DNA from: Escherichia virus TH10
Sequence record: MT446388.1
Strand: one strand, 5' to 3'
DNA: 64,000 bases
Shown here: positions 1 to 9,004 of the stretch, one piece after another
Layout: each line of letters starts with the position of its first letter
How positions within the stretch are numbered: position 1 is the stretch's first letter
The notes under the pieces: model-generated
The model's database searches: none
The model's input: the letters and a program-made list of their open reading frames with translations, nothing else
Told to the model about the DNA's origin: nothing
Program-made: the position numbers and the translations under genes

Positions 1-144
1 CCCCTCTTACTCCCCCTCTCCCCAAAAGTCAAGAGAAAAATTTGTAGAGGATTGAAAAATAATTCTTGATTTGTGTTCTGTTTTGTGGTAGTCGTGTGCG
101 CCCGTTTCATTACAGTTTTGCCAAAAATATTTTTAAAATTTTTC

Positions 145-173
145 TTGACTCTTTGAACGTGGTTATCTAGTAT
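145..173 (+). promoter_or_regulatory. sigma70-like promoter (TTGACT-17-TAGTAT)
   Basis: -35/-10 hexamers with 17-bp spacer, A/T-rich upstream; precedes first leader cassette. Confidence 0.5.
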
Positions 174-183
174 TTGCATCAAC

Positions 184-204
184 GGGGAGGGAATGACCTT
201 CCCC
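184..204 (+). promoter_or_regulatory. leader stem-loop, family A (GGGGAGG..CCTTCCC)
   Basis: 7-bp stem with one G-U, 6-nt loop, followed by conserved ACTAAA..CCTAAACTGGAGATTCAAAA-ATG. Confidence 0.5.
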
Positions 205-236
205 ACTAAACAAAGTCCTAAACTGGAGATTCAAAA

Positions 237-620
237 ATGGCATACCGTGCACCTAAATTCGTGAACAAAGACAACTTTCGCAACGCACTGGAGAAGTCAC
301 TTGATGAGAATTTTAAAGGTAACGTTATTGTTATTCACTCATTTAATTTCAAGTACGATATCAACGGGAATAAAATCAACCATTACACAGCTACAATGCT
401 AGATGGTACTCTTTCAAGTGAAAAATCCATTCTCCATACACTTGCAGGACGTGGAAAAAACCTGATAAGATGTGACAAGAGACGTTATCAGGGTGGCGCA
501 TACGGTTACGATGATGCTATTTATCATCTTGAAAATATGGGCTATCAAGTAGAAAAAGCTGGAGCGTCTCAAATAATCGGTAGTGATGGTTACGTAACTA
601 TCTTCAAAATTAACAAATAA
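237..620 (+). CDS. hypothetical early protein (127 aa)
   Basis: ORF with GGAG RBS 9 nt upstream, preceded by leader cassette. Confidence 0.6.
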   Translation: MAYRAPKFVNKDNFRNALEKSLDENFKGNVIVIHSFNFKYDINGNKINHYTATMLDGTLSSEKSILHTLAGRGKNLIRCDKRRYQGGAYGYDDAIYHLENMGYQVEKAGASQIIGSDGYVTIFKINK

Positions 621-632
621 AGTACTTTACAA

Positions 633-661
633 GGGGCTTATAGTCCGATAAAGTAAGCCCC
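633..661 (+). promoter_or_regulatory. leader stem-loop, family B (GGGGCTTA..TAAGCCCC)
   Basis: perfect 8-bp inverted repeat, variable loop, followed by conserved AGATAAAGA..CTTTACCACTAAATCCTAAA-TGGAGA-ATG. Confidence 0.5.
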
Positions 662-706
662 AGATAAAGAACTTTACCACTAAATCCTAAATTGGAGAAC
701 TTAAAA

Positions 707-964
707 ATGGCTATTATCAAAAACGTTGTAATTACTGTAAAAACTCGTGATGACGCTCGTATCATGGCTAAAAAGTTATGCGGGAAAGTGGTTGACAACG
801 GAAAACAATCTGCTGTAAGGTGGGGCGTGAAGGTTGATAAACAACTAACCTTAAAACGCAGTTCAAACAACCTTTTTAAAGGTGTAAAATCACTCGGTAA
901 AGTGAACGTCTTTACCAAAAAAGGCTATAAAATGCACTTATCATTAACTGGCAATTTAATCTGA
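707..964 (+). CDS. hypothetical early protein (85 aa)
   Basis: ORF track 692..964 begins at TTG; first ATG at 707 is 8 nt after GGAG. Confidence 0.55.
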   Translation: MAIIKNVVITVKTRDDARIMAKKLCGKVVDNGKQSAVRWGVKVDKQLTLKRSSNNLFKGVKSLGKVNVFTKKGYKMHLSLTGNLI

Positions 965-978
965 TAAAGTACTTTACA

Positions 979-1008
979 GGGGGCTTAAAAGCTGATACCT
1001 TAAGCCCC
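979..1008 (+). promoter_or_regulatory. leader stem-loop, family B
   Basis: GGGGGCTTAA..TTAAGCCCC inverted repeat, same flanks as 633-661. Confidence 0.5.
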
Positions 1009-1052
1009 AGATAAAGAGCTTTACCACTAAATCCTAAACTGGAGATTCAAAA

Positions 1053-1265
1053 ATGAACATTAATCAAAAACTGAAAACCGCCTCACAAGTCCTGTTCACA
1101 GATGATGACTATTTCAATAAAGACCTTACAGGTTTGAAATCTCTCAAAGAGATTAAAGAGCGCATGAAAATTTATGGAAAACCTCGGTTAGTTGGTGTAT
1201 TCTCTAACTGTTATGTTTATCAGCTTAATGGTCATTACAATTTTACGATTACTATTTTATCCTAA
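1053..1265 (+). CDS. hypothetical early protein (70 aa)
   Basis: ORF after family B cassette with GGAG RBS. Confidence 0.55.
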   Translation: MNINQKLKTASQVLFTDDDYFNKDLTGLKSLKEIKERMKIYGKPRLVGVFSNCYVYQLNGHYNFTITILS

Positions 1266-1280
1266 ACTGGAGATTCAAAA

Positions 1281-1577
1281 ATGAAATTATCAAATAAAGT
1301 TCGTGAAAATCTAAGCAAGTTACTCAACAAAATTGATTTCATTGAAACATCAAGAAACAGCCATGATGTTATGGAATGGTTACACGGCAAAATAAAAGGT
1401 CGTCGTGTAGTGATTTGCTTATGGAATAGTTGCATGGGGTATAAAAAACCTGTATTGCAAGTTAATATCTATGATGATACTCTTAAAAGTCCTGTCAAAG
1501 CTAAAAGCGATTTACTAGATTCTTATGAGATAACTGTAAATGGCAAAGTGTCACGTAAAGAGGAAGCACCATGTTAA
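1281..1577 (+). CDS. hypothetical early protein (98 aa)
   Basis: ORF preceded by the conserved CCTAAACTGGAGATTCAAAA initiation region (no hairpin). Confidence 0.55.
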   Translation: MKLSNKVRENLSKLLNKIDFIETSRNSHDVMEWLHGKIKGRRVVICLWNSCMGYKKPVLQVNIYDDTLKSPVKAKSDLLDSYEITVNGKVSRKEEAPC

Positions 1578-1903
1578 TGATGGCCATAACTGCAATCATC
1601 GCTATTCTGGCGCTCTATAAGGCTTATAGCGCCTATAATCTGGCAAGTAAGGCAATCACACAACAGGTTAGTAATAGCCTTGTAATGAGCTTTCTAGAGC
1701 GTTTAAGTGATGAACAATTAAAACGGTTAGAGATGAGTTTCAGATTCAGGGCAAGAACTTATCAAATCAGTGACATTTTCAAAGATGATTTTCAATTAGT
1801 CGATGATTATAATTCTCTGACAAATGCTTTAAATATTAGTGACTTAAAAGACTATTACGCTGTAATTGTTCAAGAATTGAGCAAACGAAAACAAAACTGT
1901 TGA
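1571..1903 (+). CDS. hypothetical membrane protein (110 aa)
   Basis: hydrophobic N-terminus (MLMMAITAIIAILALY); start overlaps upstream stop. Confidence 0.55.
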   Translation: MLMMAITAIIAILALYKAYSAYNLASKAITQQVSNSLVMSFLERLSDEQLKRLEMSFRFRARTYQISDIFKDDFQLVDDYNSLTNALNISDLKDYYAVIVQELSKRKQNC

Positions 1904-1928
1904 CACTGATTTTTAGATAGATTAAATT
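1900..1928 (+). promoter_or_regulatory. sigma70-like promoter (TTGACA-17-TAAATT)
   Basis: near-identical about 95-bp promoter+leader copy also at 2766-2857. Confidence 0.5.
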
Positions 1929-1937
1929 ACTCATCAA

Positions 1938-1957
1938 CGGGGAGGCAATAACCTCCC
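1938..1957 (+). promoter_or_regulatory. leader stem-loop, family A
   Basis: GGGAGG..CCTCCC; compensatory change relative to the other copies. Confidence 0.5.
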
Positions 1958-1993
1958 TACTAAATAAAGTCCTTAAACTAGGAGATTCTAAAA

Positions 1994-2266
1994 ATGTACA
2001 CTACTAACAACGGTCGCACCTTAAACGTAACCCTACGCCACTATGTGAACGGTGTAATGCACTTCGAGGATTTACAAGCTGAACAGCACATTTTGGATTG
2101 GCAACTAGCAGGACTCCAAAAAACTGCTACCGGATACGGCAAAAAGATTCCAACTAGCTGGAAAGTACACTATGAAGGACGTTTGCGCAGAATTTACCAA
2201 GATGTATGCAGCAATAGCGCATCTAGTTACATCATAGTAAAAGGTAAAAAGCTGCATTTAGTATAA
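1994..2266 (+). CDS. hypothetical early protein (90 aa)
   Basis: ORF after promoter+leader cassette. Confidence 0.55.
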   Translation: MYTTNNGRTLNVTLRHYVNGVMHFEDLQAEQHILDWQLAGLQKTATGYGKKIPTSWKVHYEGRLRRIYQDVCSNSASSYIIVKGKKLHLV

Positions 2267-2278
2267 AGTACTTTACAA

Positions 2279-2307
2279 GGGGCTTATAAGTCTGTACAGT
2301 AAGCCCC
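2279..2307 (+). promoter_or_regulatory. leader stem-loop, family B
   Basis: GGGGCTTA..TAAGCCCC inverted repeat. Confidence 0.5.
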
Positions 2308-2352
2308 AGATAAAGAGCTTTACCACTAAATCCTAAATTGGAGAACTTAAAA

Positions 2353-2757
2353 ATGGCTATTAATAACCGTGAGTTATCAATCTTAAAAGCACGTTTGACC
2401 GTTAACCGGATTAATGTTATCACGTCATCAGCACCAGATGAAACACTGCAAAATATTATTGGGAAGATTCAAAGTGTTATCTTAGACGTTGAAAGCGTAA
2501 AAAACTCATTGGCTGACGTTGCAGCAGGTATCACGCTAGACGGTGCACAACATGAGATGTCCGACATGTTAGGTAAATCTAAGGTAATGAATAAAGAGTT
2601 AGACTTGAAAATGTTTAGATTTGCCGTGAAAGTATGGCTATCTGTCGAGTATGACGCTAATTTTGCAATCGCTGATTTCTTTGCCACTTGGTTGCAACGT
2701 AATTTGGCAAGTCATGACTTCCGTGACATCTGTGATGCAATTTACGCAGAACTCTAA
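2353..2757 (+). CDS. hypothetical early protein (134 aa)
   Basis: ORF track starts at TTG 2338; ATG at 2353 follows GGAG. Confidence 0.55.
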   Translation: MAINNRELSILKARLTVNRINVITSSAPDETLQNIIGKIQSVILDVESVKNSLADVAAGITLDGAQHEMSDMLGKSKVMNKELDLKMFRFAVKVWLSVEYDANFAIADFFATWLQRNLASHDFRDICDAIYAEL

Positions 2758-2765
2758 AAATTTTA

Positions 2766-2794
2766 TTGACACTGATTTTTAGATAGATTAAATT
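2766..2794 (+). promoter_or_regulatory. sigma70-like promoter (TTGACA-17-TAAATT)
   Basis: duplicate of 1900-1928. Confidence 0.5.
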
Positions 2795-2804
2795 ACTCAT
2801 CAAC

Positions 2805-2824
2805 GGGGAGGGAATAACCTTCCC
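2805..2824 (+). promoter_or_regulatory. leader stem-loop, family A
   Basis: GGGGAGG..CCTTCCC hairpin. Confidence 0.5.
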
Positions 2825-2857
2825 ACTAAATAAAGTCCTTAAACTAGGAGATTCAAA

Positions 2858-3106
2858 ATGATGAATTTTTTAAATATCCCTGATACTTGCCGACTGTTGA
2901 CGCAACCAGAAAATTTAGGCAAACCTTTCCTGTACCATATGCCAGACAATACACCAAAAACATATAGTTACACGGTTAACCGCTTTACGGGTTACGCTGC
3001 AAAAAACGGTTACAAGGTTACTACTCAAAAAGTAACACTATTTACAAATATCGAAGAGCTTCCAACAGTCGCAGTAAAACTAATATTTACGAAGAAGACG
3101 CAATAA
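2858..3106 (+). CDS. hypothetical early protein (82 aa)
   Basis: ORF after cassette. Confidence 0.55.
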   Translation: MMNFLNIPDTCRLLTQPENLGKPFLYHMPDNTPKTYSYTVNRFTGYAAKNGYKVTTQKVTLFTNIEELPTVAVKLIFTKKTQ

Positions 3107-3117
3107 AGTACTTTACA

Positions 3118-3147
3118 GGGGGCTTAAAAGCTGATACCTTAAGCCCC
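3118..3147 (+). promoter_or_regulatory. leader stem-loop, family B
   Basis: same hairpin sequence as 979-1008. Confidence 0.5.
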
Positions 3148-3191
3148 AGATAAAGAGCTTTACCACTAAATCCTAAACTGGAGATTCAAAA

Positions 3192-3734
3192 ATGAAATGT
3201 TTTCACGGTACTACTCAAGAAAATTTCATCAACCTGATTAATAACGGTGATAAACCATCAGGCGCATGGAATTGTTCGGATATGGATGGCAATTTTTACG
3301 TGTATCCAGAAAATAAAATCTATGGCGACGATGATGAAGAGATAACATCGGAAGGTATTCAGCAAGCTCTAGGCAATGCCACTATTACGGCGGCCTTCCA
3401 GATGAAAACCCAAAATATTGTTATCTTAGAACTCGATATTCCAGAGGATGAGCTAAATGATGATTATTCTTGTGATAATATGTCGAGTGTAGCAAGTTTT
3501 ACAGAGTACTTTGATGTAAATTGGATTAAAAAGGTCTATACAACAGAGTTTAACGCTATGTATTCGCCTTTTTGTCTTCCTTCATTGGATAACCCAAATT
3601 TAAACTATCTTGATGAGTCTCTGGAGCTTCTTGCTAAAAGTGTTCAACAGTCGGACAGTATTCAGGTTTTTTGTGACATCATGGATACACTGACAGGAAA
3701 CATTGCAGAAGAGGATTTAAAGAGCTTTTTCTAA
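3192..3734 (+). CDS. hypothetical strongly acidic protein (180 aa)
   Basis: Asp/Glu-rich translation (DDDEE, EDELNDDY, EEDLKS); early-region location. Confidence 0.6.
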   Translation: MKCFHGTTQENFINLINNGDKPSGAWNCSDMDGNFYVYPENKIYGDDDEEITSEGIQQALGNATITAAFQMKTQNIVILELDIPEDELNDDYSCDNMSSVASFTEYFDVNWIKKVYTTEFNAMYSPFCLPSLDNPNLNYLDESLELLAKSVQQSDSIQVFCDIMDTLTGNIAEEDLKSFF

Positions 3735-3766
3735 AAACCTATGCAATCACCTTATAAACACTAATC

Positions 3767-3786
3767 AGCCCCTTGTAGGGGCTTTT
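3767..3786 (+). terminator. terminator-like hairpin
   Basis: AGCCCCT-TGT-AGGGGCT followed by TTTTAG. Confidence 0.4.
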
Positions 3787-3800
3787 AGAGGGCTTAAATC

Positions 3801-4034
3801 ATGCTTACAACCATTTACCTCATCCTTTCCATCTGTAATGGCCATTCATGTGACTTTAAAGGGCTTGAAGAGTTTACAGGAAGTAAAGAAAATGCTATTC
3901 AAGTTTGCCAGATAGCAAGGAAAGACTATCCCGCTAGTGATGATATACAATGTTACTTTAAGACAGAAGATGACGACGGAATCTATTTCGACAGTGTTGA
4001 CGGTCAATATGAAATTGTCATTGAAAAAGACTAG
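3801..4034 (+). CDS. hypothetical small protein with hydrophobic N-terminus (77 aa)
   Basis: ORF; N-terminal MLTTIYLILSIC. Confidence 0.5.
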   Translation: MLTTIYLILSICNGHSCDFKGLEEFTGSKENAIQVCQIARKDYPASDDIQCYFKTEDDDGIYFDSVDGQYEIVIEKD

Positions 4035-4070
4035 ACAAGCCCGATAAAAGTCTGTAAATTGTCAATCAAC

Positions 4071-4091
4071 GGGGAGGGAATGACCTTCCCC
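4071..4091 (+). promoter_or_regulatory. leader stem-loop, family A
   Basis: about 80-bp element 4046-4126 repeated at 5200-5282. Confidence 0.5.
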
Positions 4092-4126
4092 ACTAAGTAA
4101 AGTCCTTAAACTAGGAGATTCAAAAA

Positions 4127-4468
4127 ATGGCTTATGTAACCGTAATTACCGATAAAGCTGGCGCATCTTGGTCAACTCAGGTTAGTGATAAGATGTCACC
4201 TATGCAGTGCCTAAAATACTTTGAACAGTGGAACAAAGGCGAGGACACAAGCCCCTTTCAAGTGATGCAGATTATCCATGTAGACAACGAAGGAAATAAA
4301 ACGACGCTGAATAGTGAGTACTATGCAAGCCGTTTTGAAACGAGAAGTAAAACAATGAAACTTTTACGTGAATCCGGTTATGCCCATATCGCCGCGTTAA
4401 TCTGGGATGACCTGCTAAAAAGTCAGCGTATCAGCTATGTAAAACCTGAAAAAATATTCATCAGTTAA
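4127..4468 (+). CDS. hypothetical early protein (113 aa)
   Basis: ORF after cassette. Confidence 0.55.
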   Translation: MAYVTVITDKAGASWSTQVSDKMSPMQCLKYFEQWNKGEDTSPFQVMQIIHVDNEGNKTTLNSEYYASRFETRSKTMKLLRESGYAHIAALIWDDLLKSQRISYVKPEKIFIS

Positions 4469-4635
4469 TCAATAACTTACAAAAAACTTTTAAAAAGTGT
4501 TGACAATACCCCTTGACATTGGTAACTTTGTTCGAGGGGGTTTATCTAAAAGGGATTAACTTAAAAGATTCTTTATAGATAAGCTTAAAAAATTGCTTGC
4601 AATCAGCTATCAAAACAAGTAAATTACTAATCAAC

Positions 4636-4653
4636 GGGAGGGATGACCTCCCC
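4636..4653 (+). promoter_or_regulatory. leader stem-loop, family A variant
   Basis: GGGAGGG-ATGA-CCTCCCC; upstream TTGCAA..TAAATT promoter-like hexamers. Confidence 0.45.
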
Positions 4654-4685
4654 ACTAAATAAAGTCCTAAACTGGAGATTCTAAA

Positions 4686-5216
4686 ATGAACAAATTTCAA
4701 GCTATCAACTTCATTCGTTCAAATGCTGTAATGTCTAAGCCTGTAAAAGATACATACGAATTTCGTTGTAATGGGGTACATTTCGCAACAATCACCAAAT
4801 CAGAAAACGGGGCTTATTACGTTCATCGTCGTAATGTCTCAACCGTTGTAGTCTCTCACTTTATGCAAGCTGTAGCGGAATTATTACCGTTATTCTTAGA
4901 GATTTATCTAGATGAGTGTAAAAACGTTCACAACCACGTTAAAAGCCTTTTAAACGGTTATAAAATGGCTTATGAACGTTCTATCAAGTCACTAAACAAG
5001 TTTTACAATGCACCTGCAAATACTGTTTCAATGGCTTATGATGTAAACGGTGAGTTAGCTAGCCTCTTTAAAGTGGAAGAAATTAAACTGTATAATTTAC
5101 GTCCTAGTGGTTACTCTAAGACTCTTGGTGAAGGTTTAACGTTCAATATCAAGAACTTAGAAAAAACTTTAAAAGATATTGAAAAAGATATTGACGAGAC
5201 AATCAAAAGTCTGTAA
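4686..5216 (+). CDS. hypothetical early protein (176 aa)
   Basis: ORF after cassette. Confidence 0.6.
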   Translation: MNKFQAINFIRSNAVMSKPVKDTYEFRCNGVHFATITKSENGAYYVHRRNVSTVVVSHFMQAVAELLPLFLEIYLDECKNVHNHVKSLLNGYKMAYERSIKSLNKFYNAPANTVSMAYDVNGELASLFKVEEIKLYNLRPSGYSKTLGEGLTFNIKNLEKTLKDIEKDIDETIKSL

Positions 5217-5229
5217 ATTGTCAATCAAC

Positions 5230-5250
5230 GGGGAGGGAATGACCTTCCCC
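5230..5250 (+). promoter_or_regulatory. leader stem-loop, family A
   Basis: GGGGAGG..CCTTCCC. Confidence 0.5.
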
Positions 5251-5282
5251 ACTAAATAAAATCCTAAACTGGAGTTATCAAG

Positions 5283-5546
5283 ATGGAAAACGTAGAATTA
5301 ACCACACTTTTACAAATTGCAACCGACAAAGAAGATGTAGCATTATTTCACCGTATCGAAAGTGATTTGTTCAATGGTGAAATCATCAAAGAATCTTACG
5401 AAGTTGTCGGATTCAAAGATGGTAAAGCGTTTGGCTTTTTTGACCTCGATAAAGGCAACGCTGTTACAAAGTATGATGTTGTATCTTGTGAGATTCTTAC
5501 AAAATACAACGAAAAAAGGCTTGCAACATACGCCAATATGCAGTAA
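5283..5546 (+). CDS. hypothetical early protein (87 aa)
   Basis: ORF after cassette. Confidence 0.55.
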   Translation: MENVELTTLLQIATDKEDVALFHRIESDLFNGEIIKESYEVVGFKDGKAFGFFDLDKGNAVTKYDVVSCEILTKYNEKRLATYANMQ

Positions 5547-5559
5547 ATTACTAATCAAC

Positions 5560-5576
5560 GGGGATGACCTCCCCCC
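5560..5576 (+). promoter_or_regulatory. leader stem-loop, family A variant
   Basis: GGGG-ATGA-CCTCCCC. Confidence 0.45.
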
Positions 5577-5610
5577 ACTAAGTAAAGTCCTAAACTGGAG
5601 AATCTAAATT

Positions 5611-5859
5611 ATGTCAACTATCCGCGTAACTGTTAATGCTTATGGCTGCCACGAACTTGATGCAAAATTCGATATCGGTGGAACAGATAACACCTTTGAC
5701 CTTATCAAAATGCTGATTCAGCAGGTGCTACCAGATTATAACCCTACCGATGACTTTTGGAAGGACGCTGTAAAAGAAGCCATAAACGAGGAATATCACT
5801 ACCACTACTGGGGAGAAAAAATCGTCTCCCTATACTACAGCAAACAAGGTTACAACTAA
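5611..5859 (+). CDS. hypothetical early protein (82 aa)
   Basis: ORF after cassette; last + strand gene before the non-coding region. Confidence 0.55.
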   Translation: MSTIRVTVNAYGCHELDAKFDIGGTDNTFDLIKMLIQQVLPDYNPTDDFWKDAVKEAINEEYHYHYWGEKIVSLYYSKQGYN

Positions 5860-5894
5860 TCGACGCAACGGGGCTATTTAGCCCCAGATACCTG

Positions 5895-5922
5895 AAAAGC
5901 TCCTTCTCATAGGGGCTTTTTT
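5895..5922 (+). terminator. rho-independent terminator
   Basis: AAAGCTCC..GGGGCTTTT hairpin followed by T-run; preceded by GGGGCT-ATTT-AGCCCC hairpin at 5870-5885. Confidence 0.6.
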
Positions 5923-5929
5923 ACGTCTA

Positions 5930-7520
5930 TCCAATCCCTTCCCAGAATCTTCCCAGACTCCCCTAACAAGTTAGAATCTTACCAGACCTTAAAAGCAATA
6001 ACTCTATAGTCTACTCTATATCTTCTTATCAAATCAACTTAAATATAAGCCCATAACCCGAAAGGGAAGGGCAACCACTAAAACGCTCTATAAAGCTCTA
6101 TAACAGCCTTATCAACCTAACTTAAGCAATCATATTAACCTGCTCTAAAAAGCCCTTTATAAAGCTTCCTAGAACCTTAAAAGAATCTTATAAGGGTGTA
6201 AGCTTTATTATCTCGTTAGCTATCTTGTGAACTACTAAACAAGCCCCTTGATAGTAACTGAAAAGTATGTTATAGGGGCTATAAAGTTACTTCAAAGTTG
6301 CTTAAAAGTTACGTAAATGCTAGCCCCCTTAACATTTTCTTAACAATTTCTTAACAATCCCTACATAGTTATGCTTTTAAGGCACTTGTTAGAGACTTGT
6401 TAGCCCCTTGTTAAATCTCTGTTAAGACCACGTAAAAACCTTGTAAGAACCTTTGACATAGCCTTTAAAGCCCCTGTAAAGCCCTATAAAGAGGTATCTG
6501 TATAGTTGGGGTGTAATTACTAGGAAGAGGCTTAAAAGAGCTTACAAGGAGCTATAGAGAGCTTTTAAGAGGTATGTTTAAAGAATCACTAAGAGGGGAA
6601 GGGAACGATAAGAGAAGAGTAGTGACCATGTTAATAGCTTGTTAAAAAGATTAAACACTTGTTAGAAACTTGTTAATCATCTTAATTGGTATTGTTACCA
6701 ATCCCTACAAAATAACTCTTAAAAATTAACTTGTTAGCTCTTGTTAGTCATCTGTTAAGAGACTATAAAGACCATGTATCGTCTGTTAAGAAACTGTTAA
6801 GCCCTTGTTAGTTCTGTTAAGAATCTGTTAAGACCTTTGAAGAGTTGTTAAGAAGATGTGAGAACTGTTAAGAGATTGTTAAGGATATTTTAAAATTTTG
6901 CAAAGGGGATGTTACAGGGATGTTAAGGGCTACCAAGCAGATATACATCTTCTACAGATATTTTTCAGTTCCTTCAAAGACCCTAAAAAATGACTTGATA
7001 GTCCTATTTTATAAAAATTTTAAAAATCTGAATAATTACCTATACAGTCTTTCTAAAATACAGGTAGAAACAGGCTTATAAGATACCTTGTTAGTACCGT
7101 GTTAGACCTTGTGAGATAAGGTCTGTAAAGATATTCCTGTTAAGTTTGTTAAAACAGTCTATATAGAGGCTTAGTAATACCTAGTGAACACCTATAGAGT
7201 GTCATCTATGTGACATAGAGATTAAGAGGTGTATAGGAGCTTCTAAGAGGGTATAGAGAGATGGTTAAGGTGATTGTATAGGTTGTTAAGAAGGCTTGTT
7301 AGAAGAGTGTTTAGAAGGCTATTTAGAAGGGCTATACAGAGGGGCTATTAAGACCACTAGATAGTTACTAAGATACTATATAGTACTATATAACTATATA
7401 GAGAGTAAGATTAAGAAGGTTGTTAAGAAGGATAGATATTTTATTCACATATGATGGTGACCCAGAGGTTGGGACAACCGATAAAATTTTATAAAAAATA
7501 TAAATTTCGTAAATTTTACT
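5930..7520. repeat. ORF-free iteron-rich region
   Basis: no ORF of 60 aa or more in any frame; at least 25 copies of (C/T)TGTTA(A)G in mostly one orientation, often about 11 bp apart (densest 6650-6900), plus CTATA(A/G)AG family. Confidence 0.8.
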
Positions 7521-7524
7521 CAAT

Positions 7525-7548
7525 AAAAAGCCCCCAATTAAGGAGGCT
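7525..7548 (-). terminator. rho-independent terminator (minus strand)
   Basis: reverse complement GAGCCTCC-TTAATT-GGGGGCT followed by TTTTT; near-identical element in + orientation at 60090-60113. Confidence 0.6.
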
Positions 7549-7559
7549 CTTAAGATATT

Positions 7560-8153
7560 TTAAATCAGTGTTTCCAGAACTGTTTTTAGTGATGACTTGG
7601 TTGTCTGATAAAAATGAGTAAAGCCATTGTTGTTATCAAATACCTGCATCATGATATCATCTCCCTTGATTGGGTACACTCGGATATCATAGTGAAAACC
7701 ATTAAAGACACAAGAGCCATTACAGAATGCACTAAAGTCATCAACTGAGATATACTCTTCATGTCCTGTGATTTTTATACAAACACCTTTACTCGGTCTC
7801 TTAGGGTTGATATCTTCCATCACAGACATATTCTGCCCACCAAGAGATACCATAGTGACCACTTTACGGTTCTTCTGCCTAAAGTACATCTTAACTTTCT
7901 GTAAAGTGTCTTCATAGAACGGATAAGACCTTTCTACAAAGATTCCTTCAAGTGGCTCTTTACCATTTTCAACCTCTCTGTTATGCCGTACTGCAAAGAT
8001 AATTTGTTCGAACCAGTCAAGATTTTCTTCGGAGAGTGCTTCCCGAACATCCTTCCAGTCAAGTACTAAGTAGTTACCTTCAACTTCTTTTAAGTTATCT
8101 TTTTCCATATCTATCACACCATTATCGTAAAACTTGGTAGGCTGGTACTGCAA
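7560..8153 (-). CDS. hypothetical protein (197 aa)
   Basis: ORF; start may be internal Met at 8108. Confidence 0.55.
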   Translation of the reverse strand: MQYQPTKFYDNGVIDMEKDNLKEVEGNYLVLDWKDVREALSEENLDWFEQIIFAVRHNREVENGKEPLEGIFVERSYPFYEDTLQKVKMYFRQKNRKVVTMVSLGGQNMSVMEDINPKRPSKGVCIKITGHEEYISVDDFSAFCNGSCVFNGFHYDIRVYPIKGDDIMMQVFDNNNGFTHFYQTTKSSLKTVLETLI

Positions 8154-8586
8154 ACTTGTTGCTGTTGTTCTTAATAAGGTCTTCTTCTGTTACTAAGAAT
8201 GTAATCCCACATAAGTGCGTATAGTGGCTGTCATACTCAAATATTTTAAGTAGGTATTTACCATCATGGTAGACAGATTCTACTACACCTTTTGCAACAA
8301 TCTTTCCAGTCTTGAAGTCTTTAAGACGGTACACATTACCAACTTTAGGGACTGTTTTCACTTCAGGTTCTTTTAGCTTTTCGCCAGCTTCTACATCACC
8401 TAGCAAGTGAGAACTTTCAAACGCTACATATTGCATATAAGCTTCTGAGCATTCCCAGATAAAACAATGTACAAGAACCTTAGCAGCATGTCTTGAGCAA
8501 TTCAACTTATCACAAATTTCTGTGTACATCTCATCTTTAGTTGAGTTGTTAAGCATTGCTTTTTGAACTACTTCTTTAATTTTCAT
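8122..8586 (-). CDS. hypothetical protein (154 aa)
   Basis: ORF in co-directional block. Confidence 0.55.
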   Translation of the reverse strand: MKIKEVVQKAMLNNSTKDEMYTEICDKLNCSRHAAKVLVHCFIWECSEAYMQYVAFESSHLLGDVEAGEKLKEPEVKTVPKVGNVYRLKDFKTGKIVAKGVVESVYHDGKYLLKIFEYDSHYTHLCGITFLVTEEDLIKNNSNKFAVPAYQVLR

Positions 8587-9004
8587 AAGCTCTCCGAATA
8601 ACCCTATTAAGCATCTCTAAAGTCAGCTTTCCAGATTCTAAATGTGGCATAACAAGCTTTAAAGCTTTTTCAACATCATGCACAACATCTATTATACCTT
8701 CTTCATAGGCTTCTACAAGGATATCTTTTACGTTTTGTTGGTTATCTTTTTGTGGTATTGCTAGACGCATATTAAACTCATTTGCTTGAGGGTGGTCACT
8801 ACCACGCCAGTAACCATCTTTGTTAAAGCTGATGTAGTCACCGTGGTAAAAGTGTACACCATTAGCTTTAAACTTCTCCAGCACAAGGCATTGAATTGGG
8901 TATTCAGTATTCCACTCCCTGACTCCTATAACCTTCACTGTTGCGATGTACTCCTGTGTTTTTGCATCTATGATGTCAAGTTCTTGACCAGCTATGATTT
9001 GCAT
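8576..9004 (-). CDS. hypothetical protein (142 aa)
   Basis: ORF in co-directional block. Confidence 0.55.
   Translation of the reverse strand: MQIIAGQELDIIDAKTQEYIATVKVIGVREWNTEYPIQCLVLEKFKANGVHFYHGDYISFNKDGYWRGSDHPQANEFNMRLAIPQKDNQQNVKDILVEAYEEGIIDVVHDVEKALKLVMPHLESGKLTLEMLNRVIRRAYEN

What the first reader, a model, noticed from the sequence alone, without database searches (positions are those of the whole stretch)
145..5922. Modular leader cassettes in front of 14 small early genes
Almost every small ORF in 237-5859 is preceded by one of two stem-loop families (A: GGGGAGG..CCTTCCC at 184, 1938, 2805, 4071, 4636, 5230, 5560; B: GGGGCTTA..TAAGCCCC at 633, 979, 2279, 3118), followed by a nearly invariant 30-nt translation initiation region (..CTAAATCCTAAACTGGAGATTCAAAA-ATG). 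Stems are kept by compensatory changes while loops vary. Some copies carry consensus sigma70 promoters, and whole about 95-bp units are duplicated (1898-1993 vs 2764-2857; 4046-4126 vs 5200-5282). This resembles promoter-stem-loop shuffling units that drive gene-cassette exchange in variable early regions. The ORFs are candidate host-takeover/anti-defense genes.
Basis: partly seen in the sequence, partly recalled or inferred. Interest (0 to 1): 0.65.

Follow-up and report, generated by a model that had tools for sequence, protein, structure and literature searches.

The report
Promoter-hairpin-leader cassettes in Felix O1-like phage
The early-gene cluster of this Felix O1-like phage is built from repeated units, each a host-type promoter, an RNA hairpin and a shared ribosome-binding leader; these units probably drive each small gene separately and also mark where genes are gained and lost between related phages.

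Summary
The window is a Felixounavirus (Felix O1-like myovirus). Of 14 small + strand ORFs in 237-5859, 7 carry cassette A, 4 carry cassette B, 1 has only the shared leader and 2 have neither.

A is a sigma70-type promoter (17-bp spacer, -10 TAAATT), then 10 nt, then a hairpin, then the shared leader. In 62 of 67 copies from 14 genomes the hairpin starts 10 nt after the -10, so it would sit at the mRNA 5' end.

B is a fixed-length element holding TTTACA-17 bp-TAnnnT (T1, A2, T6 invariant in 56 of 56 distinct copies). It lies inside a three-helix hairpin that covaries and uses G.U pairs, so it folds as + strand RNA.

In relatives, homology blocks end at the leaders. The same gene carries A in one phage and B in another. 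One ORF is flanked by an exact 23-nt leader repeat and has homologues in unrelated phage groups.

The closest known system is the PeSL cassette of T4-like phages, but the architecture differs and no accessible paper describes this for Felix O1-like phages. Promoter activity, hairpin role and the recombination mechanism are inferred, not shown. All ORFs have unknown function; one has weak ADP-ribosyltransferase-fold matches.

The parts
145..239 (+). Cassette A1. -35 TTGACT at 145-150, -10 TAGTAT at 168-173, hairpin 184-204, shared leader with GGAG up to the ATG at 237. An A/T-rich stretch lies upstream. First promoter of the cluster.
237..620 (+). ORF, 127 aa (phrog_4495, unknown function). It carries cassette A here but cassette B in ESCO45, ESh20, nataliec and SP116.
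618..709 (+). Cassette B1. Three-helix hairpin 618-676 containing -35 TTTACA at 626-631 and -10 TAAAGT at 649-654, followed by the leader and the ATG at 707.
707..964 (+). ORF, 85 aa (phrog_5089, unknown function).
965..1055 (+). Cassette B2. Hairpin 965-1023, -35 at 973-978, -10 TACCTT at 996-1001, leader, ATG at 1053.
1053..1265 (+). ORF, 70 aa (phrog_12266). It is absent from the 13 relatives compared and present in only 5 Felixounavirus records. Homologues of 44-55% amino-acid identity occur in about 170 records of unrelated large phages. It is flanked by an exact 23-nt leader repeat (1033-1055 and 1261-1283).
1256..1283 (+). Leader-only unit in front of ORF 1281. It overlaps the 3' end of ORF 1053. 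In relatives the same gene family carries a B-type cassette.
1281..1903 (+). Two overlapping ORFs: 98 aa (1281-1577) and 110 aa (1571-1903). The second has no cassette; its start overlaps the first ORF. The pair stays adjacent in the Felixounavirus relatives where both were detected.
1900..1996 (+). Cassette A2. -35 TTGACA overlapping the stop codon of ORF 1571, -10 TAAATT at 1923-1928, hairpin 1939-1958, leader, ATG at 1994.
1994..2266 (+). ORF, 90 aa (phrog_3436, unknown function).
2264..2355 (+). Cassette B3. Hairpin 2264-2322, -35 at 2272-2277, -10 TACAGT at 2295-2300, leader, ATG at 2353.
2353..2757 (+). ORF, 134 aa (phrog_4327). Its Felix O1 orthologue, ORF20, is maximally expressed at 5 min.
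2766..2860 (+). Cassette A3, 90 of 96 identical to A2. It is joined directly to the 82-aa ORF, which in ASO1A follows a B-type element instead.
2858..3106 (+). ORF, 82 aa (phrog_9030, unknown function).
3104..3194 (+). Cassette B4, 92 of 95 identical to B2.
3192..3734 (+). [not shown]
3767..4034 (+). Gene-specific hairpin AGCCCCttgtaGGGGCT followed by TTTT (3767-3787), then ORF 3801-4034 (77 aa). No cassette and no promoter-like site. The hairpin is kept, with changed sequence, in relatives.
4032..4129 (+). Cassette A4. -35 TAGACA, -10 TAAATT at 4055-4060, hairpin 4071-4091.
4127..4468 (+). ORF, 113 aa (phrog_4318). Its Felix O1 orthologue, ORF21, is maximally expressed at 5 min. It carries B in Sf14.
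4499..4583 (+). Extra promoter-like site TTGACA-17-TAACTT with a hairpin straddling its -10, followed by a second strong hairpin (4540-4583). No ORF here in this window.
4597..4688 (+). Cassette A5. -35 TTGCAA, -10 TAAATT, hairpin 4636-4652.
4686..5216 (+). ORF, 176 aa (phrog_4725). Its Felix O1 orthologue, ORF22, is maximally expressed at 5 min.
5191..5285 (+). Cassette A6. Its -35 TTGACG lies inside the 3' end of ORF 4686. Hairpin 5230-5250.
5283..5546 (+). ORF, 87 aa (phrog_7022). Absent from Felix O1, FGS030, nataliec and SP116.
5521..5613 (+). Cassette A7. Its -35 TTGCAA lies inside the 3' end of ORF 5283. Short hairpin 5560-5574.
5611..5859 (+). ORF, 82 aa (phrog_4559), the last gene of the cluster.
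5895..5922 (+). Canonical intrinsic terminator with a run of six T that closes the cluster. It corresponds to t23 of Felix O1 and to the terminator annotated in ASO1A.

Best explanation
The cluster is an array of self-contained expression modules for small early genes of a Felix O1-like phage, read by the host sigma70 RNA polymerase.

Module A is a strong promoter. Its transcript would begin 2-4 nt before a GC-rich hairpin and run into a standard leader (..ACUAAAUAAAGUCCUAAACUGGAG, then 8-9 nt, then AUG). I infer that the 5'-terminal hairpin protects the mRNA from 5'-end-dependent decay, and that the leader gives uniform, efficient initiation.

Module B packs two signals into about 60 bp:
- A sigma70 promoter (TTTACA-17 bp-TAnnnT) that would start a transcript at about AGAUAAAG.
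- A long three-helix hairpin that forms in RNA read through from the gene upstream. It would serve as an intercistronic 3' stabiliser, or as a processing or attenuation site, for that gene.

The same 30-95-bp modules recur in front of unrelated genes. They therefore also act as portable homology. Recombination and gene conversion between modules delete, insert and re-pair genes with cassettes, and this generates the presence/absence differences among relatives.

Shown here: the anatomy, the conservation pattern, the RNA-type covariation, and breakpoints at the cassettes. Inferred: promoter activity, transcription start sites, the stabiliser role, and the recombination mechanism.
For: Identity and timing:
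- The window is a Felixounavirus.
- Felix O1 has no RNA polymerase of its own. Its ORFs 16, 20, 21 and 22 in this cluster peak at 5 min.

Module A (67 copies in 14 genomes):
- The spacer is 17 bp in 65 of 67 copies, and the -10 always reads TAnnnT.
- The hairpin starts 10 nt after the -10 in 62 of 67 copies.
- There are 36 distinct hairpin sequences, some unrelated to each other (GGGGAGGG.., GGGGCAAG..GCCCC, GGGAAACATCCC). All fold better than shuffles, with median z -4.5.
- G.U alternates with G-C in the stem.

Module B:
- The 47 standard distinct copies are the same length; the 9 B' copies are 1 nt shorter, downstream of the -10.
- TTTACA is invariant. In the -10, T1, A2 and T6 are kept in 56 of 56 distinct copies while positions 3-5 vary. 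With IMG/VR copies added, TAnnnT holds in 116 of 120.
- The RNA fold is -24 to -28 kcal/mol, z -3.5 to -4.8.
- 97.7% of cells are paired, against 33-55% when the partner is slid. Five pairs show changes on both sides, including in the basal helix outside the promoter hexamers.
- 98.7% of cells pair on the + strand against 90.3% on the complement.

Not terminators: neither hairpin is followed by a run of U, whereas the cluster ends in a canonical terminator.

Recombination:
- 60 of 70 homology-block ends fall in intergenic zones, against 28% expected. They cluster at leaders and start codons.
- Gene families 7, 19, 1, 2, 5 and 0 carry A in some genomes and B or leader-only in others.
- The B loop type differs at orthologous sites among close relatives, while lineage-specific stem states are shared by all copies within a genome.
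- ORF 1053 sits between exact 23-nt leader repeats and is otherwise found in unrelated phages.
Against: - There are no transcript data. The generic promoter scan is not enriched over shuffles in this AT-rich region (31 found, 25.5 expected), so promoter calls rest on conservation only.
- Sequences from related phages are not independent. Concerted evolution means one compensatory change can be counted many times (caveat).
- Selection against disrupting genes would by itself push breakpoints into intergenic DNA.
- Gene order never changes among the 14 genomes, so 'shuffling' is limited to gain and loss.
- The Felix O1 RT-PCR puts ORFs 17, 19 and 23 of the same cluster at 25 min, not 5 min.
- The stabiliser role of the A hairpin comes from general E. 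coli mRNA-decay knowledge, recalled rather than tested here.
Confidence: 0.7

Rival explanations
1. The B hairpin is an RNase III processing site like those between the early genes of phage T7. A long read-through early transcript would be cut in the 3x3 internal loop. The upstream mRNA would keep a protective 3' hairpin, and the downstream mRNA would start near AGAUAAAG. On this view the promoter-like hexamers are secondary or inactive.
For: - The hairpin has 20 pairs in three helices, with a 1x1 and a 3x3 internal loop. This spans about two helical turns. That is the general shape of T7 R sites (my own knowledge, not tested here).
- All three helices are supported by pairing, and two of them by covariation.
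- It always lies between two cistrons on the same strand.
Against: - T1, A2 and T6 of a -10 hexamer are invariant inside an otherwise variable loop, exactly 17 bp from an invariant TTTACA. A processing site alone does not explain this.
- No RNase III cleavage data exist.
- Rfam has no matching family.
Confidence: 0.25
2. The hairpins are transcription terminators or attenuators, as some GenBank records annotate them and as in T4-type PeSLs. They would limit read-through from one unit into the next.
For: - The ASO1A record annotates the A hairpins as rho-independent terminators.
- PeSL stem-loops were shown to terminate transcription.
- The stems are GC-rich.
Against: - No run of U follows either hairpin. 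A is followed by ACUAAAUAAAG and B by AGAUAAAG.
- The A hairpin lies about 4 nt into its own transcript and would abort it.
- The cluster has a canonical terminator with six T at its end, and one with four T before ORF 3801. The phage therefore uses ordinary terminators where they are needed.
Confidence: 0.12
3. The inverted repeats act at the DNA level. They could be operators for a dimeric phage repressor that shuts off early promoters, or hairpins in single-stranded DNA that promote recombination.
For: - The upper B repeat overlaps the spacer and the -10, which is a typical operator position.
- All copies in one genome share lineage-specific symmetric changes, for example GGTGCTTA/TAAGCACC in all four ESCO45 copies. 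A co-evolving repressor would predict this.
Against: - G.U pairs are common and strand-specific: 10-58 is U.G in 52 of 56 copies and 24-44 in 22 of 56. Pairing falls from 98.7% to 90.3% on the other strand.
- Pairing extends over 60 nt with internal loops, which is too long for an operator.
- A hairpins within one genome have unrelated sequences.
- No repressor candidate was identified.
Confidence: 0.08
4. The cassettes are leftovers of old tandem duplication, kept similar only by selection for expression. They would play no part in recombination, and breakpoints between genes would simply reflect selection against broken genes.
For: - Gene order is conserved in all genomes.
- Promoters and ribosome-binding sites are under purifying selection anyway.
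Against: - Lineage-specific stem states are shared by paralogous copies within a genome but differ between orthologous copies.
- The same gene is paired with different cassettes in different phages.
- Exact 23-nt repeats flank an inserted foreign ORF.
- Block ends pile up at the leader rather than across the intergenic DNA.
Confidence: 0.12

Closest known systems
PeSLs (promoter-early stem-loops) of T4-like phages (Arbiol et al. 2010, PMC2839356; Comeau et al. 2014, PMC4122927)
   Same: - Short repeated intergenic modules that combine a sigma70-type early promoter with a GC-rich stem-loop.
- Concentrated in a variable region of small genes of unknown function.
- Differences between close relatives are insertions, deletions and replacements bounded by the modules.
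   Different: - In PeSLs the stem-loop lies upstream of the promoter and was shown to terminate transcription. Here it lies downstream of the promoter (A) or overlaps it (B), and has no U run.
- These modules also carry a shared 30-nt leader and ribosome-binding site.
- The host phage is an Ounavirinae member, not T4-like.
- Mini-circles and measured promoter or terminator activity exist for PeSLs only.
RNase III processing sites between the early genes of phage T7 (own knowledge)
   Same: Long imperfect hairpins with internal loops between co-directional early cistrons. They are expected to leave a protective 3' hairpin on the upstream mRNA.
   Different: - T7 sites do not contain a promoter.
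- Cleavage of B is untested.
- B is shorter than the classic substrates and has an 11-nt loop holding a -10 hexamer.
5'-terminal stem-loop mRNA stabilisers in E. coli, for example the ompA 5' UTR (own knowledge: Emory, Bouvet and Belasco 1992)
   Same: A hairpin within a few unpaired nucleotides of the 5' end. What matters is structure and position, not sequence. This fits the fixed 10-nt offset and the free sequence of the A hairpins.
   Different: Start sites and half-lives are not measured here, and no sequence relation exists.
Direct repeats listed in the Felix O1 genome paper (Whichard et al. 2010, PMC3185647)
   Same: The 57-bp repeat CTTTACATGGGGCTTAAAAGTCTGTAAAGTAAGCCCCAGATAAAGAGCTTTACCACT is cassette B. 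The 39-bp repeat TTGACACTGGTTTTTAGATAGATTAAATTACACATCAAC is the promoter of cassette A.
   Different: The paper lists them only as repeats. It gives no promoter, hairpin, leader or recombination reading, and they are not among the promoters it proposes.

Membership tests
PeSL (promoter-early stem-loop) cassettes | A sigma70-like early promoter in each unit | tested here: met
   By sequence conservation only. In A, the -35/17 bp/-10 arrangement holds in 65 of 67 copies. In B, TTTACA-17-TAnnnT holds in 56 of 56 distinct copies. Promoter activity was not measured.
PeSL (promoter-early stem-loop) cassettes | A stem-loop located upstream of the promoter that acts as terminator for the preceding gene | tested here: not met
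   The A hairpin lies 10 nt downstream of the -10. The B hairpin overlaps the spacer, the -10 and the start site. Neither has a U run.
PeSL (promoter-early stem-loop) cassettes | Repeated in intergenic positions of a variable region rich in small genes of unknown function | tested here: met
   There are 11 cassettes in 5.7 kb. All 14 ORFs have unknown function. Gene content differs among the 14 genomes.
PeSL (promoter-early stem-loop) cassettes | Indels and replacements between close relatives have their junctions in the cassettes | tested here: met
   60 of 70 block ends fall in intergenic zones, clustered at the leaders. Cassette type swaps for the same gene. Exact 23-nt repeats flank ORF 1053.
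PeSL (promoter-early stem-loop) cassettes | Excised mini-circles formed by recombination between neighbouring cassettes | not testable with these tools
   Needs inverse PCR or deep sequencing of infected cells or virions.
PeSL (promoter-early stem-loop) cassettes | Found in T4-like phages | tested here: not met
   The window and all carriers are Ounavirinae, with genomes of 82-94 kb.
Intrinsic (rho-independent) terminator | A GC-rich hairpin followed directly by a run of U | tested here: not met
   A is followed by ACUAAAUAAAG and B by AGAUAAAGAG. The true terminator at 5895-5922 has six T.
RNase III processing site (T7 early type) | About two turns of imperfect double-stranded RNA with an internal loop, located between cistrons | tested here: inconclusive
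   The shape fits for B: 6 + 5 + 9 pairs with 1x1 and 3x3 internal loops. Cleavage cannot be tested here. The A hairpins, at 4-8 pairs, are too short.
5'-terminal stabilising stem-loop | A hairpin within about 0-4 unpaired nt of the transcript 5' end, with structure but not sequence conserved | tested here: inconclusive
   The hairpin starts 10 nt after the -10 in 62 of 67 copies, and there are 36 distinct hairpin sequences. The start site is inferred from the usual 7 +/- 1 nt rule, not mapped.
Any Rfam RNA family | A match to a curated covariance model | tested here: not met
   No meaningful match in 1-8000 at E <= 1.

The most novel reading that the evidence does not exclude
Cassette B is a dual-coded element. 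One 60-bp stretch is both a sigma70 promoter in DNA and, in RNA read through from upstream, an RNase III-type processing hairpin. A cut on the 3' side of its internal loop would fall at about the same nucleotide as initiation from the embedded promoter. Every gene would then receive the same standard leader, whichever way it is transcribed. That standard leader (CCUAAACUGGAG, found only in this cluster) could also be the handle for a phage factor that shuts the whole set off together.
Probability: 0.18. Interest if true: 0.7.

Novelty: new variant of a known kind. Interest (0 to 1): 0.55.

Why it matters
Felix O1-like phages are widely used for Salmonella and E. coli typing, biocontrol and therapy, yet the Felix O1 genome paper stated that it is not known how their transcription is temporally regulated.

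- These cassettes give a concrete, testable map of 11-12 early promoters and their leaders.
- They explain why GenBank records show a 'promoter' immediately followed by a 'terminator'.
- They extend the PeSL idea, regulatory modules that double as recombination sites for gene exchange, to a second, unrelated myovirus lineage with a different layout. This suggests convergent evolution.
- The modules are natural, compact promoter-hairpin-leader parts that could be reused for engineering these phages.
- They mark the slots where accessory genes, likely host-interaction genes, enter and leave.

Tried and rejected
- Generic promoter and terminator scan: no enrichment over shuffles, so it was not used as evidence on its own.
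- Rfam: nothing.
- Pfam: no family above threshold for any of the 14 ORFs. PHROGs: only families of unknown function.
- MAFFT alignment of the A hairpins: the 3' arms came out of register because loop lengths differ, so it was not used for pair counts. I used a per-sequence fold tally instead, which leans towards finding pairs.
- T4 MotA-box reading of GGTGCTTA in B: rejected. The distance to the -10 is 8 bp rather than about 12, and the Felix O1 paper reports no such polymerase-modifying factors.
- Integron attC analogy for B: considered and dropped. There is no integrase, and the fold is on the sense strand.
- Literature searches for PeSL together with Felix, for Felixounavirus transcription start sites, and in the wV8 paper found no description of these cassettes.

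Full report
**What the window is.** Megablast of 1-6000 finds 256 phage records. Nearly all are Felix O1-like myoviruses of Escherichia, Salmonella, Shigella and Citrobacter. Identity is 87-95% but only 53-87% of the query is covered, in several pieces per record. The region is therefore the variable small-gene cluster of a Felixounavirus. In the Felixounavirus and Mooglevirus relatives examined, the cluster follows a macro-domain 'phosphatase' gene and a non-coding gap. It is followed by a terminator and a further non-coding gap of about 1.6 kb. Felix O1 encodes no RNA polymerase. Its ORFs 16, 20, 21 and 22 in this cluster are maximally expressed at 5 min, and ORFs 17, 19 and 23 at 25 min.

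**Check of the observation.** Fourteen + strand ORFs start at 237, 707, 1053, 1281, 1571, 1994, 2353, 2858, 3192, 3801, 4127, 4686, 5283 and 5611.
- Seven are preceded by family A and four by family B.
- ORF 1281 has only the shared leader.
- ORFs 1571 (overlapping start) and 3801 (its own hairpin with a short T run) have neither.
- The exact 23-mer CCTAAACTGGAGATTCAAAAATG occurs four times, and once more with one mismatch, against zero in shuffles.
- The looser form TAAACT(A)GGAG precedes 12 ORFs and occurs nowhere else in the 64 kb.
- The claimed unit duplications hold: 90 of 96 and 92 of 95 identical.

**Family A.** I collected 67 copies from the window and 13 relatives (Felixounavirus, an unclassified Ounavirinae member, and Mooglevirus).
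- Each has a -35 (TTGACA, TTGCAA, TTGACG, TAGACA or TTGACT).
- The spacer is 17 bp in 65 of 67 copies.
- The -10 always reads TAnnnT, mostly TAAATT or TAAAGT.
- A 10-nt stretch ending in ATCAAC follows, and then the hairpin.
- The first paired base is 10 nt after the -10 in 62 of 67 copies.

With the usual start 7 +/- 1 nt after the -10, the transcript would begin 2-4 nt before the hairpin. There are 36 distinct hairpin sequences with stems of 4-8 pairs. Some have unrelated inner stems (GGGGAGGG..CCTTCCCC, GGGGCAAG..GCCCC, GGGGTAAGCAAGCCCC, GGGAAACATCCC, GGGCGACAAGCCC). All fold better than shuffles, with median z -4.5; the window copies with flanks give z -0.6 to -3.1. G.U alternates with G-C in the stem. 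No run of U follows.

Position and structure are conserved while sequence is not. That is what a 5'-terminal protective stem-loop requires, by established E. coli mRNA-decay knowledge that I recall rather than tested. Some GenBank records annotate this hairpin as a terminator directly after a promoter, which would abort its own transcript.

**Family B.** There are 58 copies (56 distinct) in the 14 genomes. All have the same length, except a subtype that is 1 nt shorter downstream of the -10.
- CTTTACA is invariant.
- Exactly 17 bp further on lies a hexamer with T1, A2 and T6 in 56 of 56 distinct copies, while positions 3-5 take any base.
- With IMG/VR copies added, TAnnnT holds in 116 of 120 distinct copies.

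This is the conservation signature of a sigma70 -10 element. The RNA folds into three stacked helices:
- 6 pairs, then a 1x1 mismatch, then 5 pairs, then a 3x3 internal loop, then 9 pairs, closed by an 11-nt loop.
- Free energy is -24 to -28 kcal/mol, z -3.5 to -4.8.
- On the alignment of 56 distinct copies, 97.7% of cells are paired, against 33-55% when partners are slid by 1-3 columns.
- Five pairs change on both sides, including G-C to U-A in the basal helix, which lies outside the promoter hexamers.
- G.U pairs are frequent (column 10-58 in 52 of 56 copies; column 24-44 in 22 of 56).
- Pairing is 98.7% on the + strand and 90.3% on the complement.

The fold therefore acts in the sense RNA (or the sense single strand), not as a cruciform or a symmetric protein site. 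A transcript from the embedded promoter would start just 3' of the upper helix, so only RNA read through from the upstream gene contains the whole hairpin. B is thus a promoter for the gene downstream overlapped with a 3' or intercistronic hairpin for the gene upstream. It has no U run. The cluster itself ends in a canonical terminator (5895-5922; t23 of Felix O1).

B is the older element. It occurs in 287 records, including Erwinia phages of the genus Kolesnikvirus, where the leader is different. A scan of IMG/VR with its invariant bases finds it only on contigs of 54-94 kb, most of them 82-94 kb, the genome size of this subfamily.

**The leader.** Across 12 genomes there are 133 leaders in only two forms: CCT-AAACT-GGAG (86) and CCTT-AAACT-AGGAG (47). 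There are no mixed forms, and GGAG lies 8-9 nt before the ATG in 119 of 133. The paired T/A insertion would add one pair to a tiny hairpin, UCC(U)/(A)GGA, that includes the Shine-Dalgarno bases. With only two alleles this is weak evidence, and I leave it unexplained.

**Recombination.**
- Gene order is the same in all 14 genomes, but single units come and go.
- The same gene family carries A in some phages and B or leader-only in others (families 7, 19, 1, 2, 5 and 0).
- Ends of blastn homology blocks against 13 relatives fall in intergenic zones in 60 of 70 cases, against 28% expected. They cluster at 209-243, 1057, 1259-1263, 1962-1997, 2840-2860, 3102-3105, 4107-4126, 5266-5274 and 5543-5553, that is, at leaders, start codons and cassette starts. 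These comparisons are not independent, and selection against broken genes contributes.
- The B loop type differs at orthologous positions among close relatives. Lineage-specific stem states are shared by all copies in one genome: GGTGCTTA in all four ESCO45 copies, GGGGTTTA in Mooglevirus, GGTGTTTA in the Erwinia phages. This indicates gene conversion between copies.
- ORF 1053-1265 is missing from all 13 relatives, and homology stops at 1057 and resumes at 1259-1263. It is flanked by the exact 23-nt leader repeat. It occurs in only five Felixounavirus records, but has homologues of 44-55% identity in about 170 records of unrelated large phages, such as Phapecoctavirus and jumbo coliphages.

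**Comparison with what is known.** The closest concept is the PeSL of T4-like phages: repeated promoter plus stem-loop modules in hyperplastic regions that mediate indels and form mini-circles. Shared features are the module idea, the setting and the junctions at the modules. There are three differences:
- The order of the parts. In PeSLs a terminator stem-loop lies upstream of the promoter. Here the hairpin lies downstream of the promoter or overlaps it, and has no U run.
- The added common leader.
- The phage lineage.

The Felix O1 genome paper listed the B core and the A promoter as 57-bp and 39-bp direct repeats, without interpretation, and did not include them among its proposed promoters. 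My limited searches found no paper describing them as regulatory or recombination cassettes. I therefore rate this as a new variant of a known kind.

**Verdict.** The mechanism rests on comparative sequence evidence only. Transcript-end mapping and reporter mutagenesis would settle it.

Noticed in passing
window 5930-7530: A non-coding gap of about 1.6 kb after the cluster, also present as a gap in relatives. It holds arrays of an iteron, (C)TGTTAAG / CTTGTTAG, at 11-bp phasing. Direct copies lie at 6385-6456 and 6740-6890, and inverted copies (CTTAACA) at 6328-6366. This looks like a replication origin or a protein-binding array. The nataliec record annotates 'repeat_region' here.
   Followed up: partly
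window 4469-4685: A 217-bp intergenic stretch holding another promoter-like site (TTGACA at 4499, 17 bp, TAACTT). A hairpin straddles its -10 (ACCCCT..AGGGGGT), the same promoter-inside-hairpin design as B. A second strong hairpin follows at 4540-4583. The whole stretch folds with z -4.5. There is no ORF of 30 aa or more on the + strand in this window, whereas relatives annotate 34-41-aa ORFs. It could be a small RNA or a long structured leader.
   Followed up: partly
window 3767-3800: A gene-specific hairpin, AGCCCCttgtaGGGGCT followed by TTTT, directly before ORF 3801. It has a different ribosome-binding region (AGAGGGCTTAAATCATG) and no promoter-like site. The hairpin is kept in relatives with changed stem sequence (GCAC/GTGC in REP10, GCCCC/GGGGC in Mijalis). 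It is probably an attenuator between ORFs 3192 and 3801.
   Followed up: no
[not shown]
   Followed up: partly
window 5866-5890: Just after the last ORF lies CAACGGGGCTatttAGCCCCAGATA. This combines the CAAC prefix of A, a short hairpin and the AGATA suffix of B. It looks like a decayed or hybrid cassette in front of the terminator.
   Followed up: no
L010 (Salmonella phage PMBT37) about 8545-8620; L009/L010 generally: The Erwinia-type relatives have few B copies and no A copies. They do show other intergenic units of the same design, for example TTGCAAaGGGGTTATggttatgaGATTATAACCCCgtcaac, where the hairpin arms flank a -10-like hexamer. Promoter-in-hairpin may therefore be a general habit of this subfamily.
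   Followed up: no
window 1-145: The window starts inside the non-coding gap that in relatives follows the macro-domain phosphatase gene. The first bases are C-rich (CCCCTCTTACTCCCCCTCTCCCC). An A/T-rich stretch lies directly upstream of the first promoter. This may be a genome end or merely the start of the deposited record.
   Followed up: no
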